A stretch of DNA of 31,705 nucleotides from a virus (taxonomy: Duplodnaviria; Heunggongvirae; Uroviricota; Caudoviricetes), in IMG/VR virus record IMGVR_UViG_3300012348_000136, positions 64,001 through 95,705 of that record; one strand, given 5' to 3'. Position numbers and translations under genes: made by a program. The notes under the pieces are model-generated. The model had not been told where the DNA came from. It saw only the letters and a list, made by a program, of their open reading frames with translations, and made no database searches. Shown here one piece after another: positions 1 to 21,809 of this stretch (its first letter is position 1; every line of letters begins with the position of its first letter).

Positions 1-38
1 GATTCGTGCTACCCAACAATTTTCATAACTGACCGCTA

Positions 39-134
39 CGTGTTGATACGTAGAACACGGACGACCGACGGGGATGCTGGTAGGTGTGCGTCGGCCTTAA
101 CTCGCCTAGTGTGCGAGGCAAAGGGGACCAGCAT
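39..134 (+). ncRNA. candidate structured RNA with H-type pseudoknot
   Basis: CCGACG(65-70)/CGTCGG(89-94) stem whose loop ATGCTGGT(74-81) is complementary to ACCAGCAT(127-134); extra hairpins CGTGTT/AACACG and CTCGC/GCGAG. Confidence 0.35.
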
Positions 135-157
135 AGAGTGATGTTATGAACAGCACC

Positions 158-195
158 GCGGCCTGGCTGTAAAACGGTGAAACTCCGAGGCCTGC
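158..195 (+). ncRNA. minimal tRNA-elbow-like element
   Basis: GCGGCCT/AGGCCTGC stem enclosing GGCTGTAAAA plus T-arm-like CGG-TGAAACT-CCG. Confidence 0.3.
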
Positions 196-330
196 TATTT
201 TCTTTTGTAGAAGGTCCGCTCGATTAAGTTTAGGTTGGACCATGTGCGCTGGTTGGCAACCTTGACGGCCTTGTAGCAGGTAGGCACAAGCATAGCCAAT
301 GCTTTCTTAGGGAAACCGAAGACTACAACA

Positions 331-408
331 TTGAGTGGAAAGGCGAAGTCTTCGGACATAGATCAAACCTTGTCAGTTTGAACGCTAGGGTGACTCCTCC
401 ACTCAATC
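331..408 (+). ncRNA. tRNA-like cloverleaf (non-canonical)
   Basis: 9-bp terminal stem TTGAGTGGA/TCCACTCAA, GTC-TTCG-GAC hairpin, TCAAAC-7nt loop-GTTTGA arm, degenerate T arm. Confidence 0.35.
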
Positions 409-415
409 ATTTTCT

Positions 416-491
416 GCGTTCGTAATTCAATTGGTAGAATAACTGACTTTTAATCAGTAAGTTGCGGGATCGTGACCCGCCGGACGCACCA
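416..491 (+). tRNA. tRNA-Lys(UUU)
   Basis: GCGTTCG/CGGACGC acceptor, ACTGA-CTTTTAA-TCAGT, T loop ATCGTGA, encoded CCA. Confidence 0.92.
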
Positions 492-511
492 CTTTGTGAA
501 GCATCGGTCTA

Positions 512-519
512 TATAAATA
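512..519 (+). promoter_or_regulatory. T4-type late promoter
   Basis: TATAAATA, 5 nt before ATG 525. Confidence 0.75.
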
Positions 520-524
520 GATTC

Positions 525-1130
525 ATGAACTGCTTATTTTGCAATAAAGAATGCCATAGCGTCCGAAGCTTACGCCAACATAGCATTAGATGCATTGATA
601 ATCCAAATCGTTTACCGGCAAGCCCAGGTAATTCTGGAAAGAAGGGTTCTAATCAATTTATGAATGGACGCGGCGGGATTGTTTCAGAAGAGACTAAACT
701 GAAAATTGGAAAATCAAGTTTAGGACGCGTGCATTCAGATGAGACTAAACGAAAGATCTCCGAATCGAGAAAACGTTTCTTAGACGAAAATCCTTCTAAG
801 GTTCCATACGTACTAAATCATTCTTCTAAAGTTTCATATCCTGAGGAATACTTCATTGATTGCTTTTCAGATTTACAATCAGTAATTTATCAATATCAGG
901 TTTCTCGTTTCTCTTTAGACTTTGCAAACATTCATACGATGAAATACTTCGAAGTTGATGGTGAATTTCATTACACCGATCAAGCTGTTATTTTGAAAGA
1001 TACGATTCGCGAAGAATACTTATCTGCTCGTGGATGGAACGGAATTCGTTTAAGATGGAAGGACTTCAAGAATCTTTCTACGTCTGATCAGAAACTTAAA
1101 ATTGATGAAATTAGAAAGTTCATACAATGA
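525..1130 (+). CDS. putative homing endonuclease (C2H2-like N-terminus, NUMOD3-like repeats, DUF559/Vsr-like nuclease domain)
   Basis: CLFC..HSIRC; SEETKLKIG/HSDETKRKIS repeats; FEVDGEFH and RGWNGIRLRW; start moved from 462 (inside tRNA) to ATG 525. Confidence 0.75.
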   Translation: MNCLFCNKECHSVRSLRQHSIRCIDNPNRLPASPGNSGKKGSNQFMNGRGGIVSEETKLKIGKSSLGRVHSDETKRKISESRKRFLDENPSKVPYVLNHSSKVSYPEEYFIDCFSDLQSVIYQYQVSRFSLDFANIHTMKYFEVDGEFHYTDQAVILKDTIREEYLSARGWNGIRLRWKDFKNLSTSDQKLKIDEIRKFIQ

Positions 1131-1159
1131 CCACTTTCAGTCTACGTGTATAATCATAT

Positions 1160-1262
1160 GTACACCGTGATACTATCCGGACACCGGTAAAGACGAGATA
1201 GTTGTGCGCCTAGCATAGGGCTAATAACTCTATGAACTGCCTAGGATTCGAAAGTAATGTAC
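1160..1262 (+). ncRNA. candidate structured RNA
   Basis: GTACA/TGTAC closing stem, CTATC/GATAG, CATAG/CTATG and CCTAG/CTAGG pairings; no credible ORF. Confidence 0.25.
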
Positions 1263-1284
1263 GAAAGACTGATATAATTAAACT

Positions 1285-1497
1285 ATGAAGCCAATACTCG
1301 CCACAAGCCAATATTGCGGTCCTTGCAAACTGCTTAAAGAACGCCTTGATCCGAACTCTTATGAGGTCCGTGACATGGAAGAAAACCGTGATTTTTTCGT
1401 CGAGAACGGCATTCGCGCCGTTCCGATGCTCATCATAGGTTCCGTGAAAATCACAGGAACCGAGCAAATCCTGGCATATTTCCGTGAAAATCCGTAA
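1285..1497 (+). CDS. glutaredoxin/NrdH-like redoxin
   Basis: CGPC active site, GIRAVPMLII motif, 70 aa. Confidence 0.85.
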   Translation: MKPILATSQYCGPCKLLKERLDPNSYEVRDMEENRDFFVENGIRAVPMLIIGSVKITGTEQILAYFRENP

Positions 1498-1512
1498 CTG
1501 ATTGGTTTTCAA
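1493..1512 (+). repeat. dispersed 20-bp motif CGTAAsTrATTGrwwwTCAA (copy 1)
   Basis: near-identical copies at 19483-19502, 24463-24482, 24509-24528. Confidence 0.7.
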
Positions 1513-1539
1513 CGGGATGAAAATTTGTGAATTTTTTTA

Positions 1540-1568
1540 TTTACAAGTCCGCAAAAACCTGTTAGAAT
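1540..1568 (+). promoter_or_regulatory. sigma70-like early promoter
   Basis: TTTACA-17-TAGAAT. Confidence 0.8.
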
Positions 1569-1677
1569 AATTCTGTAAGGAAACGGTAGAAACAAATTCT
1601 GCCGCCAACTTTCCCTCCGAATCTGAGGTTCGGCTGAAACTGTTCTTTCGCAAACTGAAAAATTCTGAAGATTTTGA

Positions 1678-1706
1678 TTTACAAGACGGGAACTTCCTGT
1701 TAGAAT
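1678..1706 (+). promoter_or_regulatory. sigma70-like early promoter
   Basis: TTTACA-17-TAGAAT. Confidence 0.8.
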
Positions 1707-1821
1707 AAATTCACGATCGGCAACGGTACAACCCGTCGCATGAATCGCCTTCGGAAACAGATTTTCGATTGTAACACGTTCTTTGACATTCAAACTTTGA
1801 AAGGAGTCCTTCGGTCCCTTT

Positions 1822-1957
1822 CACCATACAAGGCCGCGAGTCAAATCGCGTCTGATCAGTAACTCCCCGGATCGGGTTGAGAGAAAATCAGTATGTCAAC
1901 CGATAAATTTTCGTCGAAACTGCTAAGTGCACTTCGGCTAGGGACTAGGAGATGGTG
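1822..1957 (+). ncRNA. candidate structured RNA
   Basis: CACCAT/ATGGTG closing stem, CGCGA/TCGCG hairpin, ATCGG-GTTGA/TCAAC-CGAT stem. Confidence 0.3.
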
Positions 1958-2066
1958 TAATAATGAAAGCACGAGTCCGACATTTTGTAAAAAGAAAAGG
2001 CCGTATCTCGACAAGAGAAAGTATAAAAGACGCCGGTTGAGCCTAGCAACCAACAAATTTTCATAT

Positions 2067-2145
2067 GGGGTGTGAGTAAGGACGACTCGGTTTGGCAAAG
2101 TCAATTAAAACCCGAGGAACGGTTCGACTCCGTGACACTCCACCA
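2067..2145 (+). ncRNA. tmRNA tRNA-like-domain-only RNA (alanine-identity acceptor, no D stem, no reading frame)
   Basis: GGGGTGT/ACACTCC-A-CCA with G3.U70; 10-nt unpaired D region then GAC as in the tmRNA at 8204; CTCGG/CCGAG closes a 21-nt loop; T loop TTCGACT. Confidence 0.6.
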
Positions 2146-2162
2146 ATTTACAACTGGACTCG

Positions 2163-2243
2163 GTATGAGTGGCGATGTTCTCAGTGGGATTAAGTTCCCG
2201 CCTTCGGGTTGCTGAGGTTGTATGCCTGTTCTAAAGCTCATAC
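2163..2243 (+). ncRNA. candidate structured RNA
   Basis: GTATGAG/CTCATAC closing stem, inner CTCAG/CTGAG and GGGA/TCCC-type hairpins. Confidence 0.25.
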
Positions 2244-2255
2244 AAGATTTTCAAT

Positions 2256-2340
2256 GCTGCAGTCGACTAATGGTAGGTCCCCAGACTTTCAATCTGGTAG
2301 CGAAAGCTTCGTGCGGGTTCGACTCCCGTCTGCAGTTCCA
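2256..2340 (+). tRNA. tRNA-Glu(UUC), long variable arm
   Basis: CCAGA-CTTTCAA-TCTGG; 15-nt V region with AGC-GAAA-GCT hairpin; CCA. Confidence 0.85.
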
Positions 2341-2640
2341 CTTTTGAATGAAAACCATAACATGGTGACAACCGGATAGGTCGAGTATGTGGACCGAAGA
2401 AGCTCAGTACTCATTCGTTCAATCTTTAAGGCGAAGGTCCCAATCGTAAGTGCCTGCAGCACGAGAAGATAAAGTAATTAAACGTACAGATGGACGCGTA
2501 CCACCGTTTGTGATGATAGGAAGACCCCAGGTCGCCTCGCGCGAAGTAAGGAAACCGAACATGCCCGTGTTCATCACAATAAAGTTATTCACGGGAGATT
2601 TTCAACTGAGTCGGAGATTAGAGGTAAGTTGAGTAACAAC

Positions 2641-2753
2641 GCCCTGGTAGGTTAATAGGTAAACCGACATGCTTCATTCAATGGTACCAAACGATGAAGG
2701 CATGTGTGTACAGCATGAAAATGTAGATCTGGGTTCGATCCCCAGTCGGGGCT
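2641..2753 (+). tRNA. tRNA body with 29-nt anticodon loop (22-nt excess); apparent UCA anticodon, identity unresolved
   Basis: GCCCTGG/TCGGGGC acceptor, GGTT/AACC D stem, ACATG/CATGT anticodon stem, long V arm, CTGGG-TTCGATC-CCCAG; no encoded CCA. Confidence 0.6.
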
Positions 2754-2814
2754 GCTCTAATAAATAACGAGGCGTCGTTCCACGCCTACAAGATTCGGTA
2801 AGTTTTCAAACATT

Positions 2815-2895
2815 CATTGCAAAGCTCGTAGTCATGACCGAGCGGTGGTCCATAAGTATGCACATACAAAAGCCAGTTCGACTCTGGGTGCAATG
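2815..2895 (+). ncRNA. anticodon-less tRNA-like RNA
   Basis: CATTGCA/TGCAATG acceptor, GCTCG/CGAGC arm, CCAG-TTCGACT-CTGG T arm, no 7-nt anticodon loop. Confidence 0.45.
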
Positions 2896-2907
2896 GTAAT
2901 TTTTCAA

Positions 2908-2984
2908 CGGGATGTAGCTCAGCTTGGTAGAGCGCTGCGTTTGGGACGCAGATGTCGTCGGTTCGAATCCGGCTATCCCGACCA
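2908..2984 (+). tRNA. tRNA-Pro(UGG)
   Basis: canonical cloverleaf, CTGCG-TTTGGGA-CGCAG, CCA. Confidence 0.95.
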
Positions 2985-2996
2985 ATTTCAAAACAT

Positions 2997-3081
2997 GGGC
3001 TGGTGTGGCCGGGCTGAGCTGGCGATCATCATGATAGTTCGAAAGAACCTTAAGGAAGTTTGAATCTTCCGCTGTCCGCCA
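2997..3081 (+). ncRNA. degenerate Ser/Sec-like tRNA body with zipped UCA loop
   Basis: GGAAG-TTTGAAT-CTTCC T arm, G73-CCA, GTTC-GAAA-GAAC V arm, ATCA-TCA-TGAT. Confidence 0.4.
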
Positions 3082-3091
3082 ATTTCAATAT

Positions 3092-3176
3092 GGGTAGTTC
3101 GCATAGCGGCAATTGCAGGAGACTGTAAATCTCCCCTCTTCGGAGTACATTGGTTCGAGTCCAATACTGCCCACCA
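3092..3176 (+). tRNA. tRNA-Tyr(GUA)
   Basis: GGAGA-CTGTAAA-TCTCC, long V arm, CCA. Confidence 0.95.
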
Positions 3177-3266
3177 CTTTATAAATTCGTTCACGTGGTG
3201 GTGACGATTACAGGAGCCTAGGTCCCTACACTGTGTCTTTGCTACACAGAACCTTTAATTTTCAAT

Positions 3267-3351
3267 GCGTGTGTGGGTCAACGGCTGACCATCTGACTCT
3301 TAATCAGCGGAAGAAATTCCTATGCAGGTTCGAATCCTGTCGCACGTACCA
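3267..3351 (+). tRNA. tRNA-Lys(CUU), long variable arm
   Basis: CT-CTT-AA loop; 15-nt V region GGAA-GAAA-TTCC; CCA. Confidence 0.85.
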
Positions 3352-3363
3352 TTTTCAATAAAT

Positions 3364-3499
3364 GCCTGTTGTGCAGAATAGAAACAAAGCGTCATGTAGC
3401 AACCCTCACATGACGATGGAATGACGAAAAGCACTAGCTGAACTGATCATTCAGCGCAAAACTTAAAGCTATGAGGTTTACGCTTTGGGTCAGGCGCCA
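3364..3499 (+). ncRNA. CCA-ended multi-stem RNA
   Basis: GCCTG/CAGGC-G-CCA ends; CGTCATG/CATGACG; GCTGAA-CTGATCA-TTCAGC; AAAGC/GCTTT. Confidence 0.35.
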
Positions 3500-3508
3500 C
3501 TTTCAAAT

Positions 3509-3583
3509 GGGCTGTTAGTATAACGGATAATACGCTGCGCTACGAACGCAGACATCCAGGTTCGATTCCTGGGCGGCCTACCA
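3509..3583 (+). tRNA. tRNA-Arg(ACG)
   Basis: CTGCG-CTACGAA-CGCAG, CCA. Confidence 0.93.
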
Positions 3584-3593
3584 TTTTCAATAT

Positions 3594-3670
3594 CCGAGAG
3601 TAGCTTTAATTGGTAAAAGCCCTCCCTGTGAAGGAGCACAATGTGGGTTCGACTCCCACCTCGCGGACCA
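3594..3670 (+). tRNA. tRNA-His(GUG), A73, no genomic G-1
   Basis: CT-GTG-AA loop; CCGAGAG/CTCGCGG-A-CCA; preceding base T. Confidence 0.88.
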
Positions 3671-3705
3671 TTTTCTCGATGCGGTTTGCAGACTGTATCG
3701 GACAA

Positions 3706-3835
3706 GTAAGCGAACATAAGAACGCATGATGCTGCAACTGATTGCAAGTAAGATGAGGTAATAGCATAGTAGGAGTGCACGGGGCGAGGAGCCTCGAGGC
3801 ATTGGTGCAAATCCAATTTACTTTCTGTCGCTTAC
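3706..3835 (+). ncRNA. structured RNA with nested T-arm module
   Basis: GTAAGCGA/TCGCTTAC outer stem; AAGTAA/TTACTT stem stacked on ATTGG-TGCAAAT-CCAAT. Confidence 0.35.
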
Positions 3836-3849
3836 AAGTTTTTCAATAT

Positions 3850-3925
3850 GGGCTCGCATGTTCCTCGGGGGCGAGAAGCACTTGCAATGCATCTGTGGCC
3901 GGTTCGATTCCGGTCGGGTCCACCA
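3850..3925 (+). tRNA. tRNA-Ala(UGC)
   Basis: G3.U70, CT-TGC-AA, A73-CCA; atypical D arm. Confidence 0.85.
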
Positions 3926-3935
3926 ATTTCAAAAT

Positions 3936-4029
3936 GTGGTTCATCGGAAGCAGTCTTTAGGTGGGCTGAGGTGACTGTCGCTCAAAGCGAGAAACACCCT
4001 ATGCCAGTCCCTCCCGATGAACCACGCCA
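3936..4029 (+). ncRNA. RNA with perfect 12-bp terminal helix ending G-CCA
   Basis: GTGGTTCATCGG/CCGATGAACCAC followed by GCCA. Confidence 0.5.
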
Positions 4030-4033
4030 CTCT

Positions 4034-4120
4034 GGGCAGCGAGAACTGTGGGTAAGTAAAAGGAGATTCGACCTCTCCATTCTCTGGCTAGTCACTATCA
4101 GGATGACAACCTGACTGCCC
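4034..4120 (+). ncRNA. structured RNA with internal D/T elbow mimic
   Basis: GGGCAG/CTGCCC; GAGAA/TTCTC around GGAGA-TTCGACC-TCTCC; TCAGG/CCTGA hairpin. Confidence 0.4.
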
Positions 4121-4138
4121 GAATTTTTCATAAGTAAT

Positions 4139-4213
4139 GCTGGCATCGTCTAATGGTCAGGACGCATCCCTTTCAAGGATTAAATACGAGTTCGATTCTC
4201 GTTGTCAGTACCA
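4139..4213 (+). tRNA. tRNA-Glu(UUC)
   Basis: ATCC-CTTTCAA-GGAT, short V arm, CCA. Confidence 0.92.
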
Positions 4214-4221
4214 ATCTTTAA

Positions 4222-4296
4222 CCACGTGTAGCTCAGAGGCAGAGCAGACGCCCGATAAGCGTCAGGTCGTGATATCGTAATTCACCACGTGGACCA
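4222..4296 (+). tRNA. tRNA-Ile(GAU), atypical C33 and T loop
   Basis: CCACGTG/CACGTGG, GACGC-CCGATAA-GCGTC, T loop ATCGTAA, CCA. Confidence 0.8.
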
Positions 4297-4303
4297 CTTT
4301 TAT

Positions 4304-4393
4304 GGAGGTATGACAGAGCGGTAATGTATCTGTTTGCTAAACAGCAGTCACCCTTGACCGGGTGCGTCGGTTCGATCCCGGCTGCCTCCGCCA
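4304..4393 (+). tRNA. tRNA-Ser(GCU)
   Basis: TT-GCT-AA loop, long V arm, G73-CCA. Confidence 0.93.
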
Positions 4394-4402
4394 CTTTCAA
4401 AT

Positions 4403-4480
4403 GGGCCGTACCCTTGTGGGCATCCAAAGCAGTGAAATGCAGAGGTTAGGTAATAAGTTGGACGATACCAACACGGCACA
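4403..4480 (+). pseudogene. degenerate tRNA-like element
   Basis: GGGCCGT/ACGGCAC ends and GTTGG/CCAAC T-like arm; no canonical loops or CCA. Confidence 0.3.
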
Positions 4481-4490
4481 CGCTTTCAAT

Positions 4491-4565
4491 CGCGGGTTAC
4501 TCGAGTGGTTCAGAGGCGGGTCTCATAAGCCTGTTACGTCGGTTCGAATCCGACACCCGCAACCA
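4491..4565 (+). tRNA. tRNA-fMet(CAU), initiator type
   Basis: C1.A72 mismatch, CGCGGG start, CT-CAT-AA, CCA. Confidence 0.88.
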
Positions 4566-4567
4566 AT

Positions 4568-4643
4568 GGCTCGTTCGTTCAACGGATAGGACTGCGTTCT
4601 TCTAAAGCGACAATGATGGGTTCGATTCCCTCACGAGCTACCA
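4568..4643 (+). tRNA. tRNA-Arg(UCU)
   Basis: CT-TCT-AA loop, CCA. Confidence 0.88.
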
Positions 4644-4789
4644 CTTTTCTGCAATGAGGGCATGGGGATGATTGGTTTCCCAAGAGCATGTGCAAGGACG
4701 CAACGATGAGTCCGTTTCCATACGGACCTACCAATGACCTGAATCTAAACTCTTCTAGGTGAGCGACCTGATCAGAACTAATTTTCAAT

Positions 4790-4866
4790 GGCCGTGTAGC
4801 CGAATAGGTATAGGCAACGAACTTAAAATTCGTAATTTGTGGGTTCGAGTCCCACCACGGCTACCA
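4790..4866 (+). tRNA. tRNA-Leu(UAA), short variable region
   Basis: ACGAA-CTTAAAA-TTCGT; V region only AATTT; A73-CCA. Confidence 0.88.
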
Positions 4867-4872
4867 TTTTTA

Positions 4873-4933
4873 GATTGGTGTTCTTTATCCACTAAGAGAC
4901 CTGTATTGGCATGGTTCTTGAGGAACACCGATC
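4873..4933 (+). ncRNA. long hairpin spacer RNA
   Basis: 12-bp GATTGGTGTTCT/GGAACACCGATC plus inner stem. Confidence 0.3.
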
Positions 4934-4939
4934 TCTCAT

Positions 4940-5015
4940 GCGCTTGTAGCTCAATGGTCAGAGCTCCCGACTCATAATCGGTAGGTTACAGGTTCGAATC
5001 CTGTCGGGCGCACCA
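4940..5015 (+). tRNA. tRNA-Met/Ile2(CAU), elongator type
   Basis: paired G1-C72, CT-CAT-AA, CCA. Confidence 0.9.
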
Positions 5016-5024
5016 AACATCTTA

Positions 5025-5126
5025 GCAGTAGAGAGGAAAACTCAGCCATGATGGTTGTTGGCGGTTCCTCAGAGGAAGTCGTGTTCCTCTTAGTGTAAAT
5101 GTCGAATCACGAATCAAGCACACTGC
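5025..5126 (+). ncRNA. candidate structured RNA
   Basis: GCAGT/ACTGC closing stem; GAGGAA/TTCCTC and AGAGGAA/TTCCTCT hairpins. Confidence 0.3.
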
Positions 5127-5137
5127 AAAATTTCAAA

Positions 5138-5214
5138 TCCTGAGTAGCTCAGTGGCAGTTAGCGGTGCACTGTTAATGCATAGGTCGTTGGTTCGATCCC
5201 AACCTCAGGAGCCA
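5138..5214 (+). tRNA. tRNA-Asn(GUU)
   Basis: TCCTGAG/CTCAGGA, CT-GTT-AA, G73-CCA. Confidence 0.92.
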
Positions 5215-5343
5215 ATTTAATTGTGGGAAGCTAATTGGAGCAATAGACAATTTCTGATCGGATGTCTAAGTAAAGCATTTACTGAATGCAACATATCATA
5301 TAATGGAAACCTTTTTAAGAAATTTCTAAATCTTTATAATAAA

Positions 5344-5429
5344 GCTGAAGTCGCATAGTGGTCGATTGCACCTGCCTTGTAAGCAGGATGGTTTCCGCGC
5401 CGTGGGTTCGAATCCCACCTTCAGCTCCA
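5344..5429 (+). tRNA. tRNA-Thr(UGU), extended variable region
   Basis: CCTGC-CTTGTAA-GCAGG; 14-nt V region; CCA. Confidence 0.88.
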
Positions 5430-5453
5430 AACATTTTTCGTTGAGTAGTGATA

Positions 5454-5583
5454 TGAATTGGTTACTTCTATTGTTACAGACGGGGTGAAGGTTCGAATCC
5501 TTCGTCGAGAACAGAGTGCATTCGTAGAGTGCATTCCGTTCTCGGCTAGCTTAATGGTTAGAGCACGAAAAAATACCAAGTCA
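5454..5583 (+). ncRNA. circularly permuted tRNA mimic (YrlA-type Y RNA topology)
   Basis: order T arm (5487-5503) > 9-bp acceptor-like hairpin (5504-5546) > D arm TA-GCTT-AATGGTTA-GAGC (5547-5564); ends pair TGAATTGGT/ACCAAGTCA. Confidence 0.7.
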
Positions 5584-5602
5584 GACTGTTCTCTCGACGA
5601 AT

Positions 5603-5677
5603 GCATCCGTAGCTCAGTGGTAGAGCACAGGTTTGATAAACCTGGGGTCGTTGGATCGTTCCCAACCGGGTGTACCA
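5603..5677 (+). tRNA. tRNA-Ile(GAU)
   Basis: CAGGT-TTGATAA-ACCTG, T loop ATCGTTC, CCA. Confidence 0.92.
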
Positions 5678-5686
5678 ATTTTCAAT

Positions 5687-5771
5687 GCGTGTGTGAGATA
5701 ATGGTTGTCTAGCTGCCTTTTAAGCAGAGGAGGAAACTCCAAAGTGGGTTCGATTCCCACCGCACGTACCA
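5687..5771 (+). tRNA. tRNA-Lys(UUU), long variable arm
   Basis: CT-TTT-AA; 15-nt V region GGAG-GAAA-CTCC; acceptor identical to 3267 tRNA; CCA. Confidence 0.85.
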
Positions 5772-5776
5772 CTTTG

Positions 5777-5784
5777 TATAAATA
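5777..5784 (+). promoter_or_regulatory. T4-type late promoter
   Basis: TATAAATA, 5 nt before ATG 5790. Confidence 0.75.
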
Positions 5785-5789
5785 AAACC

Positions 5790-6056
5790 ATGACAAACGA
5801 TCTACTTAAGACAATTGAAGGAGTTCTTCGCGAAGAAGACATATTAAACGAATCCGTCAATAAATCTGAATACTCTGAAGTATCAAAGGCTATTGATACA
5901 ATCTATGGATCATTTTCTCCAACTAGTTCTTTCTCCAAAAGCTTAGTGAAATTGGATTCAGCTTATGCAGCTGACGTTAAGAAAATCCGAGAGCACATTG
6001 TTGCAATTGACAACATTTGGCAAGATCTGCGAAGCGAATTGGATAGTATGAATTAA
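5790..6056 (+). CDS. hypothetical late protein
   Basis: 88 aa ORF filling inter-tRNA gap behind late promoter. Confidence 0.75.
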   Translation: MTNDLLKTIEGVLREEDILNESVNKSEYSEVSKAIDTIYGSFSPTSSFSKSLVKLDSAYAADVKKIREHIVAIDNIWQDLRSELDSMN

Positions 6057-6057
6057 T

Positions 6058-6132
6058 GCTTGTGTAGCTCAGCGGTAGAGCAAGGAACTCTAAATTCCGT
6101 CGTCGTGGGTTCAAATCCCACCATAAGCACCA
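6058..6132 (+). tRNA. amber suppressor tRNA (CUA)
   Basis: perfect cloverleaf GCTTGTG/CATAAGC, loop CT-CTA-AA, A73-CCA. Confidence 0.88.
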
Positions 6133-6140
6133 CTCTTAAA

Positions 6141-6148
6141 CATAAATA
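6141..6148 (+). promoter_or_regulatory. late-promoter variant
   Basis: CATAAATA, 5 nt before ATG 6154. Confidence 0.55.
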
Positions 6149-6153
6149 CAAAT

Positions 6154-6774
6154 ATGAAAACAAACGCATAGGTACAAAATGTTCTTGATGACATGTCGAG
6201 AACACAACAAACGGAAACACAAACAGTATTGGATCATGGCTTAAGTGTGTGGTCTTTTTCAGAACGAATCTTGAAGAAGGATACATCTGACATGAAGATA
6301 CCAACTTGGTTTATTGATCATTATAGTTTCATCCTTGACAATTTGCATAGCGTTGAGATCATCAAAGAATACAATGTAATGCATGATTGTGGCAAGCCAT
6401 ACTGTTTAGAGATTGATGAGAATGGTAAAAGACATTTTCCCAATCATGCTGCGGTTTCCGAAAGAACTTATCGCGCTTTGCCGTATTCCAAAGATGAGGT
6501 TGCACGCCTAATTGGTCTTGATATGTTGTTGCATACCGCAACTGCCGAAGAGGTCAATGCGCTTAACTTAAGCATCGCTGATGCATTTACTTTGCTTCTA
6601 ACTGCTTTCGCTGAAGTTCATTCAAATGCAAGTATGTTTGGAGGTACTGATAGCATATCCTTTAAGTCAAAGTGGAAGAAACTTGATCGAAGAGGTAAGA
6701 TGCTAGTTTTAGATTTTTATGGAAGTCGCCCGGATGGACGAGGACACTGTCTTGAAAACAGCTGGGGCCTATAA
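6154..6774 (+). CDS. HD-domain phosphohydrolase-like protein (in-frame TAG at codon 6; alternative start 6193)
   Basis: VLDHG...MHDCGKP...HFPNHA...DMLLH; ATG 6154 is in frame with 6193 via TAG 6169-6171; last 54 nt overlap tRNA-Ser. Confidence 0.65.
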
Positions 6775-6809
6775 AGCCCTCGTGGGTTCGAATCCCACGG
6801 CTTCCGCCA
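6721..6809 (+). tRNA. tRNA-Ser(UGA)
   Basis: CT-TGA-AA, long V arm, G73-CCA. Confidence 0.92.
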
Positions 6810-6814
6810 CTTTT

Positions 6815-6893: not shown

Positions 6894-6901
6894 TTTCTCC
6901 T

Positions 6902-6994: not shown

Positions 6995-7026
6995 TGAAAC
7001 TTTTTTCACTTTTGTGAATTTTCTTG

Positions 7027-7055: not shown

Positions 7056-7063
7056 GGCGCTGT

Positions 7064-14909: not shown

Positions 14910-16217
14910 ATGAAAACAAACATTAGGAATACTCCGAAGAACTTCACCCACGAAGGCGCGGTTGCGAAAAACATCAATGCAAAGCAAGAATTGCGTCGCA
15001 CCGTTATGTCGTGTTTGCTGTGGGAAAATAGCTTCTATGAAAGCGGTGTCGATATTGCTTCACGCATCGCAAACCTTGTGCCTCGCGTCAGCGGTAAGGA
15101 CGCAATGGAAATTGCAATTGAGTGTCGATCCTCAATGAAGCTGCGTCATACGCCTCTTTACATTGCTCGACTTATGGCACAAAACGCACATCAGCGTGAG
15201 TATGTTGCAACTACTCTGTTTGGAATTATCCAGCGTGCAGATGAACTGTCCGAATTCCTTTCTCTTTACTGGAAGGATGGTCGTGTCCCAATTGCTAAGC
15301 AGGTCAAGAAGGGTCTTGCGCAAGCATTCACTAAGTTCAACGAATATGCTCTTGCAAAGTATAATCGTGACGGTGCAATCAAGCTACGTGACGTCCTGTT
15401 CTTGGTACACGCTAAGCCAAAAGACGAAGAACAAGCTGCTCTTTGGAAGCGCCTTGTTAGTGACGAGTTGAAGACTCCAGATACGTGGGAAGTTGAATTG
15501 TCAGCTTCGTCTGATAAGAAGGCTTCTTGGACTCGATTGCTGTCCGAAAACAAGTTGGGTGCATTGGCTCTGTTGCGTAACCTTCGTAACATGAAGAACG
15601 CTGGTGTAGATGACATGTTGATTCGCGATGCATTGCGTAATATCAATCCAGAACGTGTCCTTCCATTCCGTTTCATTAGCGCTGCGCGTCATGCGCCAAG
15701 CTTTGAGGCTGAACTTGAAGACGGTATGTTTAAGTGTTTGGAAGGACACGCTAAGCTGCCAGGTAAGACCGTTCTGTTGATTGACGTCTCAGGCTCGATG
15801 GATTGGACGATCAGTGACAAGAGTGACATCAATCGTATTGACGCTGCATGTGGACTTGCTATGTTGCTGCGCGAGATTTGTGATACCGTTGAGGTTCATA
15901 CTTTCTCAAATGCAGTTCGTGAAGTTGCGCCACGTCGTGGATTCGCGCTTGCCGAAGCTATCAATCGTTCTCAGCCTCACGGTGGAACTAATCTCGGGCA
16001 AGCGGTTAAAACGATCAATGAAATTAACTGTGATCGTCTGATCGTTATCACTGATGAACAGAGCTCATCTCGCGTTCCAGATCCAGTGTGTAAGAAGTCC
16101 TATATGATCAACGTTGCTTCCTACAAGAATGGTGTTGGTTATGGTCCTTGGACACACATTGACGGTTGGAGCGAAGCTATTGTGACTTACATCCAGACGC
16201 TCGAAAATTCACATTAA
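14910..16217 (+). CDS. rsr: Ro60/TROVE RNA-binding protein
   Basis: THEG, ELRRTVMSCLLWE..FYE, TPDTWE, ALLRNLRN, PFRF..A, C-terminal DVSGSM VWA. Confidence 0.93.
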   Translation: MKTNIRNTPKNFTHEGAVAKNINAKQELRRTVMSCLLWENSFYESGVDIASRIANLVPRVSGKDAMEIAIECRSSMKLRHTPLYIARLMAQNAHQREYVATTLFGIIQRADELSEFLSLYWKDGRVPIAKQVKKGLAQAFTKFNEYALAKYNRDGAIKLRDVLFLVHAKPKDEEQAALWKRLVSDELKTPDTWEVELSASSDKKASWTRLLSENKLGALALLRNLRNMKNAGVDDMLIRDALRNINPERVLPFRFISAARHAPSFEAELEDGMFKCLEGHAKLPGKTVLLIDVSGSMDWTISDKSDINRIDAACGLAMLLREICDTVEVHTFSNAVREVAPRRGFALAEAINRSQPHGGTNLGQAVKTINEINCDRLIVITDEQSSSRVPDPVCKKSYMINVASYKNGVGYGPWTHIDGWSEAIVTYIQTLENSH

Positions 16218-19487: not shown

Positions 19488-19502
19488 GTGATTGATTTTC
19501 AA
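19483..19502 (+). repeat. dispersed 20-bp motif (copy 2)
   Basis: CGTAAGTGATTGATTTTCAA. Confidence 0.7.
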
Positions 19503-19541
19503 TAAATTGCCAAAATTTGTGAAAATTTGTGAATTTTCTTG

Positions 19542-19570
19542 TTTACATCCGTTCGTTTTCCGTTTATAAT
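19542..19570 (+). promoter_or_regulatory. sigma70-like early promoter
   Basis: TTTACA-17-TATAAT. Confidence 0.85.
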
Positions 19571-19595
19571 GATTCTGTAAGGAAACTACCACAAC

Positions 19596-19832
19596 ATGCT
19601 CGCCCCAACGCTACTTGCCTCGCCAAATGAAGCCATTGAGCTAATTCAAGAAACCAAGCCGCGAGGTAAAGCTGGCAATCCCGCCGTTTACATTCTGATT
19701 GACAATACGACGATCATGTGCACCGCTGGTAAAGCAATTAAAGTCCTTGAGAATGTAGCATCTGGCACAACTTTCAAAGCATTCACTAACGGCGCAAACA
19801 CCCTCACAATTAAAGCACACGCGCGATTCTGA
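19596..19832 (+). CDS. hypothetical early protein
   Basis: 78 aa after promoter. Confidence 0.7.
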   Translation: MLAPTLLASPNEAIELIQETKPRGKAGNPAVYILIDNTTIMCTAGKAIKVLENVASGTTFKAFTNGANTLTIKAHARF

Positions 19833-19833
19833 T

Positions 19834-20139
19834 ATGAGCCTCGACAAAGCAATCAAGCATGGCAAAGAACATCGCAAAGAATATCGCGATTCGCGCCGAT
19901 GGGACAATAGCTGCCGCCATGGTGGATCTTGCTCTTACTGCAGAGGTGGACGCACCCTCTTTGACAGGCGAGCGCGTTCTCGGACCGACGGACAGGTTGA
20001 TGAATGGTTCGGTTACTGGGGAATGCCTGATCCTTCGGACGCTGATGCCGCGGCAGCCGAAAAAACATACCGCCGTTTTGGCATCGACCCCGATGATTGG
20101 GATCTGCTTGTTGAACTTGGAGAACTTTACAAAGGCTAA
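19834..20139 (+). CDS. hypothetical protein with CRHGGSCSYC motif
   Basis: basic N-terminus, Cys/His cluster. Confidence 0.75.
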   Translation: MSLDKAIKHGKEHRKEYRDSRRWDNSCRHGGSCSYCRGGRTLFDRRARSRTDGQVDEWFGYWGMPDPSDADAAAAEKTYRRFGIDPDDWDLLVELGELYKG

Positions 20140-20147
20140 CAATCACG

Positions 20148-20363
20148 ATGAAGTGCATCATACGTGCAATGTCAGAAACCGAATATAAGCCACGCAAAAG
20201 ATGGTGGGGTTTTGTTGACACTGACGGGACACGTTACCTTATGCGTTATCATCATGTTCTTGCGGCATTTTCAGATTCAAAAATCCTCTTTGCACGATAC
20301 CAAACAATAACCGATAAGCGCGGAGTACAATTCGCAATTAAACATTTTAAGTCTTCATTATGA
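20148..20363 (+). CDS. hypothetical protein
   Basis: 71 aa, ATGA-coupled to next gene. Confidence 0.65.
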   Translation: MKCIIRAMSETEYKPRKRWWGFVDTDGTRYLMRYHHVLAAFSDSKILFARYQTITDKRGVQFAIKHFKSSL

Positions 20364-21121
20364 AAAATCATTCTATCACTACGCACCCTTCCTTTGAAAA
20401 ATGCCGCGGCAGACTCCTTTGTGAACTCATCGGCGGGTCTACTCTGTATGGTCTTGATACGCCTGACAGTGACATCGACTATCGTGGACTGTTCTTTGCG
20501 TCAGATAAGCAATATGTCGCAGGCTTTGAAAACATCGAAAGTATCGTGCAGACCGGTGAAGTTGATTCGGCTTACTATGAGCTGACTCATTACCTCAAAC
20601 TGCTGCGCAAGTCCAATACCCAAGTGCTTGAAATCCTCTTTGCACCTGAGAGTTCTTTTACTCGCAATGGGCTGTTGTTCAATCGCATCCGCGAAAACCG
20701 CTACAGCCTGATCGACAGTCATATTCTCAAAGGCAGCCTGAAAGGTTACGTCTTTAGCGAAATGCGACTTGCAACGGGTGAACGTAGTGGACGTCTTGGC
20801 GGCAAGCGTAAGGAACAAGTTACGAAGTTTGGGTTCAGTCCTAAGAATTTCGTGCAGATCATGCGCTTGTGCCGCGTCGGTCAGCGCTTCTTTACGGACG
20901 GTCATTACATCGTCAATGTGAAGTTGTCCGATCCTGAGTTCCATGCAGAACTTATGGACATCAAGACCCAACCGCAAAAGTATACGGTTGAACAGCTCAA
21001 GGCTCGTGTCGATCATGAATATGATCTTCTTGTTCAAGTTATGGACAAGAGCGATGTAACCTACAAATTCGATTCTGAACTCGCGGCTGGCCTGATCATG
21101 ACCGCTCGCTATAATTACTGA
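20360..21121 (+). CDS. Pol-beta-family nucleotidyltransferase (YcgL/RlaP-like)
   Basis: GGSTLYGLDTPDSDIDYRG, KSNTQVLEILF. Confidence 0.85.
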   Translation: MKNHSITTHPSFEKCRGRLLCELIGGSTLYGLDTPDSDIDYRGLFFASDKQYVAGFENIESIVQTGEVDSAYYELTHYLKLLRKSNTQVLEILFAPESSFTRNGLLFNRIRENRYSLIDSHILKGSLKGYVFSEMRLATGERSGRLGGKRKEQVTKFGFSPKNFVQIMRLCRVGQRFFTDGHYIVNVKLSDPEFHAELMDIKTQPQKYTVEQLKARVDHEYDLLVQVMDKSDVTYKFDSELAAGLIMTARYNY

Positions 21122-21122
21122 T

Positions 21123-21809
21123 ATGAATCTCGTTAAACCAATCTACATTCTCGGTGACGTGCACGGGCAATTTGCTCGTCTGCGCGAAAACATTGCCAAG
21201 TATGATCTTCGCGATTGTTACATCATTTGCGTAGGTGACTTGGGAATTGGTTTTCAGCATCCAGCAAAAGGAGAACTTAGCGGCTGTCGCAAGCTTAACA
21301 CGTTCTTTTTAGGTCGGAACATTCACTTCATGAGTATCCGAGGCAATCATGATGATCCTCAATACTTCAATGGACGAAATCGTATCGAGCTGAGTAACTT
21401 CCGCTTGCTTCCTGACTATCATGCCGAAACATTCAACAGAGAACGCTTTCTGTTTGTTGGAGGTGCTGTAAGTATTGACCGTCTATATCGTGTTGAAGGA
21501 CGTTCATATTGGCGAGACGAAGTCTTTGTGTATGATCCTTCAAAGGTCACTCCTTGTGATGTGTTAATCACTCACAGTGCGCCATATTGGATTGGTCCTT
21601 TTGACAAAGAAGGGCTGTCAGGCTGGTGCGAAAAAGACAAGACACTGTGGGACGAATGTTATCGTGAACGATTGCAGCACGATGAATTAGTTCAAGCTTG
21701 TGGCGCTAAGCGTCATTACTGCGGTCACTTTCATGCTTACCACTGGGTTGACTTCCGTGAATGCTACAGCACTATCCTTGACATTGACCAATTTAAAGAA
21801 CATCGCTAA
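21123..21809 (+). CDS. calcineurin-like metallophosphoesterase
   Basis: GDVHG, GDLG, RGNHD, THSAP, GHFH. Confidence 0.9.
   Translation: MNLVKPIYILGDVHGQFARLRENIAKYDLRDCYIICVGDLGIGFQHPAKGELSGCRKLNTFFLGRNIHFMSIRGNHDDPQYFNGRNRIELSNFRLLPDYHAETFNRERFLFVGGAVSIDRLYRVEGRSYWRDEVFVYDPSKVTPCDVLITHSAPYWIGPFDKEGLSGWCEKDKTLWDECYRERLQHDELVQACGAKRHYCGHFHAYHWVDFRECYSTILDIDQFKEHR

What the first reader, a model, noticed from the sequence alone, without database searches (positions are those of the whole stretch)
1..21809. Candidate phage tRNA-mimic/decoy plus RNA-repair system
Seen: besides 27 tRNAs, the array holds at least a dozen units that keep tRNA recognition surfaces (acceptor helix, T loop, often CCA) but delete, zip shut, mask or permute the anticodon arm. 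The same genome segment encodes Ro60/TROVE, an HD protein, two metallophosphoesterases, a Pol-beta nucleotidyltransferase and tmRNA. Established: anticodon nucleases (PrrC, RloC, PARIS AriB) cut tRNA-Lys/Glu, and bacterial Ro60-Y RNA is linked to RNA repair/decay. Inference: an RNA-based counter-defence or translation-takeover kit using decoys, re-bodied tRNAs and repair enzymes.
Basis: partly seen in the sequence, partly recalled or inferred. Interest (0 to 1): 0.85.

Follow-up and report, generated by a model that had tools for sequence, protein, structure and literature searches.

The report
Phage tRNA island with tRNA-like RNAs
The gaps between the tRNA genes of this uncultured phage hold a set of conserved tRNA-shaped small RNAs; at least one is a Y RNA matching the phage's own Ro60 protein, and nothing shows that they are decoys for anticodon-cutting defence enzymes.

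Summary
Besides 26 tRNAs and a tmRNA, 4.2 kb of spacers hold 7 strict T-arm-plus-acceptor units on the + strand. None lie on the - strand, and shuffles give 0.07. Two or three looser units bring the total to about ten, not "at least a dozen".

They are not decaying pseudogenes. Neutral (4-fold) sites are 77% identical to the nearest relative, while several units are 92-100% identical. Others keep their helices through compensatory changes.

The units are mixed:
- 5437-5602 is a permuted, YrlA-type Y RNA. A model built only from RNAs next to the closest phage Ro60 genes finds it (35 bits, E 1.6e-6).
- 2606-2798 and 3671-3847 bury a tRNA-like domain inside longer helices.
- 2067-2145 and 3850-3925 carry the alanine identity set (G3.U70, A73, CCA); 2996-3084 has G3.U70 and CCA with G73.

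Ro60, RlaP, two metallophosphoesterases, a weak HD protein and the tmRNA are confirmed. No RNA ligase lies on this half-genome fragment.

The anticodon-nuclease decoy idea is unsupported, because nearly all units lack an anticodon loop. Phage Ro60 with Y RNAs, and phage tRNA/RlaP/TROVE repair kits, are already published, and T4 species 1 RNA is the closest analogue. This scan had already noted several of these units separately on this same window. Verdict: a new variant of known kinds.

The parts
416..10149 (+). Window part of a 13.5-kb tRNA array: 26 tRNA genes, all on the + strand. They include class-II-bodied Glu (2256), Lys (3267, 5687) and Thr (5344), and an amber suppressor tRNA(CUA) at 6058-6132.
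   Evidence: ARAGORN; Rfam RF00005.
1540..1706 (+). Two repeated sigma-70-like promoters (TTTACA-N17-TAGAAT with an extended -10 TG) at 1540-1568 and 1678-1706, upstream of the unit-rich part of the array.
   Evidence: (repeat D11). These are consensus matches only.
2067..2145 (+). 79-nt tRNA-like RNA. It has a 7-bp acceptor with G1-C72, G2-C71, G3.U70, A73 and an encoded CCA, plus a T arm. It has no D stem, and a long irregular hairpin replaces the anticodon arm.
   Evidence: No tRNA or tmRNA model hit. Against the L005 paralogue at 6124-6205, 4 acceptor pairs covary while G3.U70 is kept.
2163..2244 (+). Conserved structured RNA that is not tRNA-like: a multi-helix fold with a UUCG hairpin and a GGAUUAAGUUCC hairpin. 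It sits between unit 2067 and tRNA-Glu.
   Evidence: Found in 7 distinct phage contigs. 8 of 26 pairs are compensatory, against a maximum of 4 in 200 column shuffles. No Rfam family.
2606..2798 (+). About 193-nt RNA with a tRNA-like domain at 2641-2753 (acceptor, D arm, about 15-bp hairpin in place of the anticodon arm, T arm, no CCA). Two flanking helices (CUGAGUC/GAUUCGG and AUUAGAG/CUCUAAU) extend its acceptor.
   Evidence: Rfam tRNA 42.5 bits with an insertion. 91% identical to L005 including the flanks. Alifold energy is -56.9 against a shuffled mean of -29.7, but there is no covariation support.
2815..2899 (+). 85-nt tRNA-like unit (7-bp acceptor, D-like hairpin, T arm) with no CCA. It is absent from the relatives and may be a decaying tRNA.
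   Evidence: No homologue in L005 or L027.
2996..3084 (+). tRNA-like RNA with an imperfect acceptor (G3.U70, CCA), a D-like hairpin, a GUUC-GAAA-GAAC hairpin in place of the anticodon arm, and a T arm with loop UUUGAAU.
   Evidence: 94/99 identical to L005.
3671..3847 (+). About 177-nt RNA made of a 5' hairpin, a long-range helix (3706-3716 with 3829-3841), an inner hairpin and a tRNA-like domain at 3755-3825. In that domain a 6-bp stem with a 5-nt loop replaces the anticodon loop (no U33, loop sequence not conserved).
   Evidence: Rfam tRNA 42.3 bits. The three-way alignment gave 9 compensatory pairs by RNAalifold. My own count was 10, reached by 1 of 200 column shuffles.
3850..3925 (+). 76-nt aberrant tRNA-Ala(UGC)-like RNA. 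It has G3.U70, A73, CCA and a canonical anticodon loop CUUGCAA, but the D arm is replaced by a shifted 4-bp stem with a GGGG loop.
   Evidence: Not called by default ARAGORN or Rfam; called tRNA-Ala at -ps90. 86/86 identical to L005 while 4-fold sites are 77% identical.
4402..4483 (+). tRNA-shaped RNA with a conserved 2:71 mismatch, short hairpins in the D and anticodon positions, a T arm with loop ACGAUAC, and no CCA.
   Evidence: 86% identical to L027, with compensatory changes in three hairpins.
5437..5602 (+). YrlA-type Y RNA candidate. The paired 5' and 3' ends form a bulged terminal helix. Then come the conserved GUUACUUCUAUUGUUA segment, a T arm, a closed and extended acceptor-like hairpin, and a D arm.
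   Evidence: MFE z = -4.6. Global alignment to Rfam YrlA at 19.3 bits, below the gathering score of 69. 19 of 48 pairs are compensatory in 3 sequences, against a maximum of 9 in shuffles. Model R1, built only from Ro60-adjacent phage RNAs, scores 35.4 bits, E 1.6e-6.
6193..6774 (+). Divergent HD-domain protein inside the array; its 3' end runs into tRNA-Ser. Many homologues are fused to a PTH2 (peptidyl-tRNA hydrolase) domain.
8204..8539 (+). tmRNA.
   Evidence: Rfam RF00023 129 bits; ARAGORN.
9847..9957 (+). Weak tRNA-like unit (6/7 acceptor, good T arm, no CCA) with no homologue in the relatives.
11504..12022 (+). Calcineurin-like metallophosphoesterase (weak Pfam match), conserved in L005 (86%) and L004 (70%).
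14910..16217 (+). Ro60-like TROVE + vWA protein.
   Evidence: PF05731 E 5.9e-16 and PF25045. 50-55% identical to the Ro60-like proteins of Xanthomonas, Brevundimonas and Caulobacter phages.
20360..21809 (+). Adjacent gene pair: RlaP Pol-beta nucleotidyltransferase (20360-21121) and a metallophosphoesterase (21123-21809).
   Evidence: RlaP adds 1-2 nt to damaged RNA 3' ends (bioRxiv 10.64898/2025.12.29.696909).

Best explanation
The window is the distal two-thirds of a polycistronic tRNA and small-RNA island of an uncultured phage (T4-like, according to earlier notes of this scan). Its spacers encode a mixed set of stable structured RNAs.

Shown:
- The units are far more frequent than chance, are strand-specific, and are more conserved than neutral sites. 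Several keep their helices by compensatory change.
- Each unit begins right after the same TTT(T)CAA(W) linker that precedes the true tRNAs.
- Unit 5437-5602 is homologous to the YrlA-like RNAs that lie beside the closest phage Ro60 genes.

Inferred:
- The units are co-transcribed with the tRNAs from the promoters at about 1540 and 1678. Host tRNA-processing enzymes then excise them, because they present tRNA-like ends, as T4 species 1 RNA does.
- The Y RNA, together with three 65-nt 'mini-Y' units just upstream of the window, loads the phage Ro60 and tethers it to a host exonuclease such as PNPase. This would remodel or degrade structured RNA during infection.
- The two RNAs with a buried tRNA-like domain may be further Ro60 or tRNA-enzyme ligands.
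- The free-ended units carrying G3.U70 and CCA (with A73 in 2067-2145 and 3850-3925) derive from tRNA-Ala or the tmRNA tRNA-like domain, and could be charged by alanyl-tRNA synthetase.
- RlaP with its neighbouring phosphoesterase, and the HD protein, plausibly trim and rebuild damaged RNA 3' ends.

The units with no homologue in relatives (2815, 3352, 4644, 4867, 9847) may be young or decaying.
For: - Excess over chance: 7 strict units on the + strand, 0 on the - strand, shuffle mean 0.07.
- Conservation: 4-fold sites are 76.7% identical to L005. The units score 100% (3850), 96% (3671), 95% (2996, 2146) and 89% (5016).
- Covariation against column-shuffled alignments: 19 compensatory pairs against a maximum of 9 (5437-5602); 8 against a maximum of 4 (2163-2244); 10, reached by 1 of 200 shuffles (3671-3847).
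- Shared linker: 34 hits on the + strand against 7 on the - strand in 1701-5800, abutting the 5' ends of tRNAs and units alike.
- Ro60 link: the nearest cultured Ro60 homologues are 50-55% identical. They have 2-3 YrlA-like RNAs directly upstream (Rfam 30-52 bits). Model R1, built only from those RNAs, hits window 5442-5597 (35.4 bits, E 1.6e-6), its L005 orthologue (38 bits), and two mini-Y units upstream of the window (36-37 bits). The mini-Y family has 9 of 16 compensatory pairs.
- Precedent: T4 rnaC folds with a T arm plus an acceptor-like closure inside the T4 tRNA cluster.
- Published biochemistry: a phage Ro60 binds two phage Y RNAs and host PNPase (PMC12135203). YrlA RNAs mimic tRNA and occur in phages (PMC4201824).
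- Alanine set: non-tRNA units with G3.U70, A73 and CCA recur (3 in this genome, 3 in L005, 3-4 in L027).
Against:
- The Y RNA lies 9.3 kb from Ro60. It scores only 19.3 bits against Rfam YrlA (gathering score 69). It carries only a relaxed form (GGUGAU) of the GNCGAAN0-1G motif.
- Only 2-3 independent sequences are available per unit, so the covariation statistics are thin. RNAalifold also favours paired columns.
- Unit 2606-2798 has no covariation support.
- Five relatives' fragments lack Ro60, though all but one are incomplete.
- Roles for most units are inferred from shape alone.
- No RNA ligase was found.
Confidence: 0.6

Rival explanations
1. The first reader's decoy idea, in the only form the anatomy allows. 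The CCA-ended, acceptor-plus-T-arm RNAs soak up host defence or toxin enzymes that recognise the acceptor end or elbow of tRNA. Examples are CCA-end pyrophosphokinases, nucleotidyltransferases and aminoacyl-tRNA acetyltransferases, rather than anticodon nucleases. This would spare the real tRNAs.
For: The units keep the acceptor stem, T arm and often CCA while the anticodon arm varies or is lost. They are conserved. They sit in a phage with duplicated, re-bodied Lys and Glu tRNAs and RNA end-repair enzymes. Host defences that attack tRNA outside the anticodon are known, for example Septu cutting the tRNA-Tyr variable loop (PMC13096335).
Against: No target enzyme is known for the unknown host. 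A sponge needs high abundance, which is untested. Two of the tRNA-like domains have no free 3' end. One unit is better explained as a Y RNA. Units lacking an anticodon loop cannot be decoys for PrrC, RloC or AriB.
Confidence: 0.15
2. The units are tRNA pseudogenes left by duplication and homing-endonuclease traffic in the array. They are decaying and have no function.
For: Five units (2815, 3352, 4644, 4867, 9847) have no counterpart in L005 or L027. The array is mosaic and carries at least two homing-endonuclease genes (462-1130 and 8565-9338). A tRNA 5' half is duplicated at 8549.
Against: The conserved units are 89-100% identical where neutral sites are 77%. Helices are kept by compensatory changes beyond the shuffled controls. 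G3.U70 is retained while neighbouring acceptor pairs covary.
Confidence: 0.1
3. The units are processing punctuation only. Their tRNA-like folds and hairpins exist to direct RNase P, RNase E or 3' trimming, so that neighbouring tRNAs are released correctly. The excised pieces have no role of their own.
For: A common linker precedes the units and the tRNAs. The units fill the gaps between tRNAs with similar spacing. Nothing is known of trans targets.
Against: Many tRNA pairs in the same array are only 2-12 nt apart and need no such spacer. Internal loops and non-helical segments are conserved across divergent phages, for example the 16-nt CUUCUAUUGUUACAGA in 5437-5602 and the loops of 2163-2244. 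Homology to the Ro60-adjacent Y RNAs also argues against it.
Confidence: 0.15

Closest known systems
YrlA-type bacterial and phage Y RNAs with Ro60/Rsr (Chen et al. 2014, PMC4201824; phiLo phage Ro60-Yrl1/2-PNPase, PMC12135203)
   Same: A Ro60-like TROVE+vWA protein together with an RNA whose paired ends carry a bulged helix. The RNA's body is a permuted tRNA mimic (T arm, closed acceptor hairpin, D arm). Several Y RNAs per genome, all on the same strand as the Ro60 gene. Motifs (GGUG..., GUUACUUC, CUGUUCC) are shared with the RNAs next to the Ro60 genes of Xanthomonas and Caulobacter phages.
   Different: Here the RNA lies inside the tRNA array, 9.3 kb from the Ro60 gene, instead of within 4 kb. 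It is below the Rfam gathering score. It has a much longer closed acceptor hairpin and only a relaxed GNCGAA motif. The 65-nt mini-Y units lack the tRNA-like domain.
Phage T4 species 1 and 2 RNAs (rnaC, rnaD)
   Same: Small RNAs encoded within the phage tRNA cluster on the tRNA strand. rnaC ends in a T arm plus an acceptor-like closure, with long hairpins where the D and anticodon arms would be. Their role is unknown (PMC3014915).
   Different: There is no detectable sequence similarity. This phage has about ten such units rather than two, several with the alanine identity set and an encoded CCA, and it also encodes a Ro60 gene, which T4 lacks.
tmRNA tRNA-like domain and alanine minihelices
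   Same: G1-C72, G2-C71, G3.U70, A73, CCA and a T arm, without a decoding anticodon arm, in 2067-2145. The same acceptor set occurs in 3850-3925 and in one unit upstream of the window.
   Different: There is no mRNA-like part and no pseudoknots. No tmRNA model hit. Charging by AlaRS is untested, and no SmpB is known from this phage.
Phage RNA-repair and counter-defence kits (T4 Pnk/Rnl1 against PrrC; tRNA + RlaP + TROVE sets in jumbo phages, PMC7824862; Burroughs and Aravind 2016)
   Same: A large tRNA set, an RlaP nucleotidyltransferase next to a phosphoesterase, Ro60/TROVE with a tRNA-like RNA, and an HD protein.
   Different: No RNA ligase, polynucleotide kinase or CCA-adding enzyme was found on the fragment. 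The genes are scattered among unrelated accessory genes.

Membership tests
YrlA Y RNA (Rfam RF02553; Chen 2014), for unit 5437-5602 | Paired 5'/3' ends enclosing, in order, a T arm, a closed acceptor-like hairpin and a D arm (a permuted tRNA mimic) | tested here: met
   MFE and consensus folds. Global alignment to all 114 model positions. 19 compensatory pairs.
YrlA Y RNA (Rfam RF02553; Chen 2014), for unit 5437-5602 | Score at or above the Rfam gathering threshold (69 bits) | tested here: not met
   19.3 bits, E 0.066 on a 186-nt stretch. The Ro60-adjacent RNAs of MET23-P3 and CcrColossus also stay below it, at 30-52 bits.
YrlA Y RNA (Rfam RF02553; Chen 2014), for unit 5437-5602 | GNCGAAN0-1G motif near the 5' end | tested here: inconclusive
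   AGUGAU (window) and GGUGAU (L005, L027) stand at the corresponding place. The related phage RNAs have GGUGAA or GGCGUA there. A GACGAAUG occurs at the 3' end of the window copy only.
YrlA Y RNA (Rfam RF02553; Chen 2014), for unit 5437-5602 | Encoded within 4 kb of the Ro60 gene on the same strand (the criterion of the 2014 survey) | tested here: not met
   Same strand, but 9.3 kb upstream of 14910. The 214-nt gap just downstream of the Ro60 gene is not conserved.
YrlA Y RNA (Rfam RF02553; Chen 2014), for unit 5437-5602 | Homology to RNAs that accompany orthologous Ro60 genes | tested here: met
   Model R1, built only from 4 Ro60-adjacent phage RNAs, scores 35.4 bits, E 1.6e-6, over the full model.
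YrlA Y RNA (Rfam RF02553; Chen 2014), for unit 5437-5602 | Bound by Ro60 | not testable with these tools
   Needs pull-down or EMSA.
tRNA (RF00005), for units 2641-2753 and 3755-3825 | Cloverleaf scoring above the gathering threshold | tested here: met
   42.5 and 42.3 bits against 29.
tRNA (RF00005), for units 2641-2753 and 3755-3825 | A 7-nt anticodon loop with U33 and a conserved anticodon | tested here: not met
   3755: 6-bp stem with a 5-nt loop, GAGGA in the window and L027 and AGAAA in L005. 2641: about 15-bp hairpin whose tip differs between the window and L005.
T4 species 1 RNA (rnaC)-like stable RNAs | Encoded in the phage tRNA cluster on the tRNA strand, with a T arm and an acceptor-like closure but no decoding arm | tested here: met
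   Window units; T4 rnaC fold and scan.
T4 species 1 RNA (rnaC)-like stable RNAs | Sequence homology to T4 rnaC or rnaD | tested here: not met
   blastn 'distant' of 1500-6060 against 50,697 phage records returned tRNA matches only among the 40 best places listed.
T4 species 1 RNA (rnaC)-like stable RNAs | Accumulates as a discrete processed RNA | not testable with these tools
Alanine-accepting tRNA mimic / tmRNA tRNA-like domain | G3.U70 with G1-C72, G2-C71, A73 and a 3' CCA | tested here: met
   2067-2145, 3850-3925 and genome 62692-62774. 2996-3084 has G3.U70 and CCA, but G73 in the window and A73 in L005.
Alanine-accepting tRNA mimic / tmRNA tRNA-like domain | Match to a tmRNA model | tested here: not met
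   Only a 15.4-bit tRNA-Sec hit for 2066-2142.
Alanine-accepting tRNA mimic / tmRNA tRNA-like domain | Aminoacylation by AlaRS | not testable with these tools
   Needs a charging assay.
Phage RNA repair system (healing and sealing) | An RNA ligase (RtcB, Rnl1 or Rnl2 type) | tested here: not met
   No match to PF01139, PF09511 or PF09414 in the 95.7-kb record. The record is about 50% complete, and the PF09511 control rang nowhere, so that one search is uninformative.
Phage RNA repair system (healing and sealing) | End-healing or end-rebuilding enzymes | tested here: met
   RlaP PF10127 E 1.5e-14 next to Metallophos E 2e-12; a second, weak Metallophos; a weak HD. No PF01743 CCA-adding enzyme.
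Anticodon-nuclease decoy | Presents the anticodon stem-loop that the nuclease recognises (Lys or Glu) | tested here: not met
   None of the non-tRNA units has a Lys or Glu anticodon loop. Most have no 7-nt loop at all.

The most novel reading that the evidence does not exclude
This phage group has expanded the enigmatic T4 species-1 type of RNA into a family of tRNA mimics with alanine identity (G3.U70, A73, CCA, no decoding arm). Three or four occur per array in three related phages. In this reading the mimics are charged by host AlaRS and act in trans. They could serve as message-less ribosome-rescue or EF-Tu/AlaRS-titrating effectors, or as sponges for defence enzymes aimed at the acceptor end. 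They would work beside a Ro60 particle whose Y RNAs are also made from the tRNA operon.
Probability: 0.15. Interest if true: 0.85.

Novelty: new variant of a known kind. Interest (0 to 1): 0.6.

Why it matters
The two small RNAs of the T4 tRNA cluster have had no known role for about fifty years. This phage lineage offers many conserved relatives by shape, with comparative signal, so the question becomes testable.

The window also shows phage Y RNAs made from a tRNA operon rather than beside the Ro60 gene. These include domain-less mini-Y units. Surveys limited to 4 kb around Ro60 will therefore miss such partners.

If the alanine-identity mimics are charged or bind defence enzymes, they would be a new class of RNA-based phage effectors. 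If not, they still mark which spacer sequences in phage tRNA arrays should not be annotated as junk or as tRNAs.

Tried and rejected
- Megablast and blastn against 50,697 cultured phage records: the places listed lay only on tRNAs.
- Rfam at relaxed thresholds gave no family for 2163-2244 or 2067-2145. It found nothing credible in 10.1-22.5 kb.
- I looked for a Y RNA next to the Ro60 gene. The 16218-16431 gap is poorly conserved, and its fold is not better than shuffles (z = -1.85).
- The search for RtcB, Rnl1, Rnl2 and CCA-adding enzyme in the whole record found none.
- The search for Ro60 in five relatives' records found none, but four of the five are only 31-51% complete.
- I tested whether ORF 5790-6056 is the missing PTH2 half of the HD protein. 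It is not.
- I tested whether 12401-13309 is a ligase. The Atlas points to a vWA-like fold instead, as a lead only.
- Unit 2606-2798 has no covariation above shuffles.
- Relaxed ARAGORN reads 5436-5512 as a tRNA(CUA). I rejected this because that segment is the conserved Y RNA motif region, also present as ACUUCGACUGUUA in Xanthomonas phage RNAs.
- R1 hits at window 4947-5061 and L005 7815-7935 overlap a real tRNA-Met. I treated them as the tandem-tRNA false positives that Chen et al. warn about.

Full report
**What the window is.** The window is the last 31.7 kb of a 95.7-kb linear virus record, estimated to be about 50% complete. Earlier notes of this scan call it an uncultured marine T4-like phage. 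I did not test that label beyond a weak match to the T4-type prohead protease family. ARAGORN finds 26 tRNAs and a tmRNA in the window, all on the + strand. The whole record has 42 tRNAs plus the tmRNA, in one array at 60.6-74.2 kb. Infernal adds tRNA-model hits at 2641-2753 and 3755-3825.

The protein list is confirmed:
- Ro60/TROVE+vWA at 14910-16217.
- RlaP at 20360-21121, abutting a metallophosphoesterase at 21123-21809.
- A second, weaker metallophosphoesterase at 11504-12022.
- The tmRNA.
- The "HD protein" (6193-6774), which is weak: PF01966 E 0.075, an HDxGK motif, and one homologue named an HD phosphodiesterase. Many of its homologues are fused to a PTH2 peptidyl-tRNA hydrolase domain.

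**Are the units decaying pseudogenes?** Relatives came from IMG/VR and JGI metagenomes. They are a close one (L005 and identical copies), an intermediate one (L027) and distant ones (L004 and others). Across seven shared genes, 4-fold degenerate sites are 76.7% identical between the window and L005. Against that yardstick the units score as follows:

| Unit | Identity to L005 |
|---|---|
| 3850-3925 | 86/86 |
| 3671-3755 | 82/85 |
| 2996-3092 | 94/99 |
| 2146-2244 | 92/97 |
| 5016-5138 | 109/122 |

More diverged units keep their helices through compensatory changes. I counted compensatory pairs in RNAalifold consensus folds and compared them with 200 column-shuffled alignments refolded the same way:

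| Unit | Sequences | Compensatory pairs | Column-shuffled control |
|---|---|---|---|
| 5437-5602 | 3 | 19 of 48 | maximum 9 |
| 2163-2244 | 7 | 8 of 26 | maximum 4 |
| 3671-3847 | 3 | 10 of 53 | reached by 1 of 200 |
| 2606-2798 | 2 | 2 | no support; energy and 91% identity only |

Five units (2815, 3352, 4644, 4867, 9847) have no counterpart in the relatives and may be young or decaying.

**The units are not one thing.**

(a) 5437-5602 is a Y RNA candidate. Its ends pair, and then come a T arm, a long closed acceptor-like hairpin and a near-perfect D arm. That is the YrlA layout (PMC4201824). Rfam YrlA aligns over its full length but gives only 19.3 bits.
- The closest cultured Ro60 homologues, 50-55% identical, are in Xanthomonas, Brevundimonas and Caulobacter phages.
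- In Xanthomonas phage MET23-P3 and Caulobacter phage CcrColossus, two or three YrlA-like RNAs (30-52 bits) lie directly upstream of the Ro60 gene.
- They share motifs with the window's unit: 5' GGUG..., GUUACUUC..UGUUA and 3' CUGUUCC.
- A covariance model built only from four of those RNAs finds window 5442-5597 at 35.4 bits (E 1.6e-6) and its L005 orthologue at 38 bits.
- It also finds a canonical copy in L027 (71 bits), one beside the Ro60 gene of a Microcystis phage (50 bits), and two 65-nt units just upstream of my window (36-37 bits).
- Those 65-nt units keep the terminal module but lack the tRNA-like body. The family has at least three copies in this genome and shows 9 of 16 compensatory pairs.
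- A phage Ro60 has been shown to bind two phage Y RNAs and host PNPase (PMC12135203).

(b) 2606-2798 and 3671-3847 each contain a tRNA-like domain in normal arm order. In both, flanking sequences that pair with each other prolong the acceptor stem, so there is no free 3' end. The anticodon arm is a closed hairpin without U33 or a conserved triplet.

(c) 2067-2145, 2996-3084 and 3850-3925 are free-standing, end in an encoded CCA, and carry G3.U70. Two of them have A73. In 2996-3084 position 73 is G in the window and A in L005.
- Non-tRNA units with the full set (G1-C72, G2-C71, G3.U70, A73, CCA) recur: 3 in this genome, 3 in L005 and 3-4 in L027.
- Acceptor pairs 5-7 covary around an unchanged G3.U70.
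- By established knowledge of AlaRS identity (G3.U70 minihelices), such RNAs could be alanylated. This is an inference.
- 3850-3925 keeps a canonical UGC loop and may simply be an odd tRNA-Ala.

(d) 2163-2244 is a conserved non-tRNA fold found in seven distinct contigs, with no Rfam family.

**Organisation.** Two repeated promoter-like sites (TTTACA-N17-TAGAAT) precede the unit-rich stretch. A TTT(T)CAA(W) linker abuts the 5' end of tRNAs and units alike, with 34 hits on the + strand against 7 on the - strand in 1701-5800. For the RNAs with a buried domain, the linker precedes the outer helix and not the inner tRNA-like domain. This fits co-transcription and tRNA-style excision, which remains inferred.

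**Interpretation.** The specific idea of decoys for PrrC, RloC or PARIS does not fit, because those nucleases act on the anticodon loop, which these units lack. A sponge for enzymes aimed at the acceptor end stays possible but has no direct support. The "repair system" is incomplete on this fragment: no RtcB, Rnl1, Rnl2-type ligase or CCA-adding enzyme was found. The genes are also scattered among unrelated accessory genes. The combination of phage tRNAs, TROVE with a tRNA-like RNA, RlaP and phosphoesterases has been described before (PMC7824862), and RlaP activity on damaged RNA ends has been shown.

**Comparison and novelty.** The closest analogue by shape and position is T4 species 1 RNA (rnaC). 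It also closes with a T arm and an acceptor-like helix inside the tRNA cluster, and its role is unknown. No sequence homology was found. The Y RNA part belongs to a known kind, but three things are new:
- Its placement in the tRNA operon, 9-14 kb from the Ro60 gene.
- The mini-Y units.
- The recurrent alanine-identity mimics.

I rate the finding a new variant of known kinds. It has good comparative support and no functional data.

Noticed in passing
L001:17105-17178, 17258-17330, 17926-18010 (genome 61105-62010; 2.0-2.9 kb upstream of the window start): Three paralogous units of about 65-80 nt between tRNAs. They share the terminal helix and the GUUACUUC and GUUGCCUC motifs of the phage YrlA-like RNAs but lack the tRNA-like body ('mini-Y'). 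Two are hit by model R1 at 36-37 bits, and the family shows 9 of 16 compensatory pairs.
   Followed up: partly
window 2163-2244: A conserved multi-helix RNA with a UUCG hairpin and an invariant GGAUUAAGUUCC hairpin. It occurs in seven distinct phage contigs, usually within tRNA arrays but sometimes right after a promoter-like site. No Rfam family matches it.
   Followed up: partly
window 6058-6195: An intact amber-suppressor tRNA(CUA), conserved in L005 and L009, lies just upstream of the HD-like gene. An ATG at 6154 is followed by an in-frame TAG six codons later.
   Followed up: no
window 6193-6774: Homologues of this HD-like protein are often about 280 aa and carry a PTH2 peptidyl-tRNA hydrolase domain, at either the N- or the C-terminus. 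The window copy has only the HD part, and its reading frame runs into tRNA-Ser.
   Followed up: partly
window 2256-2340, 3267-3351, 5344-5429, 5687-5771: tRNA-Glu(UUC), Lys(CUU), Thr(UGU) and Lys(UUU) are 85-86 nt long, with long variable arms, beside canonical short-arm Lys(UUU) and Glu(UUC). At the homologous sites L005 has the short forms of Glu and Lys(UUU). The long-arm Thr also occurs in the distant relative L022.
   Followed up: no
window 8549-8635 and 8565-9338: A copy of a tRNA 5' half, 82% identical to the start of tRNA-Thr at 5344, follows the tmRNA and overlaps the start of a homing-endonuclease gene. That gene has three diverged copies in L005.
   Followed up: no
window 2425-2605: A 180-nt stretch of the long spacer after tRNA-Glu is 77% identical to L025 and L030. 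Its nature (small ORF 2450-2632 or RNA) was not resolved.
   Followed up: no
window 7027-7055 and 11201-11229: Further copies of the TTTACA-N17-TATAAT/TATAGT promoter-like motif, with the same upstream TTTGTGAATTTT element as at 1524 and 1662.
   Followed up: no
L005:10805-11158: ARAGORN does not call the tmRNA in the close relative, although the region aligns at 91% to the window's tmRNA and ends in the same T arm, acceptor and CCA.
   Followed up: no
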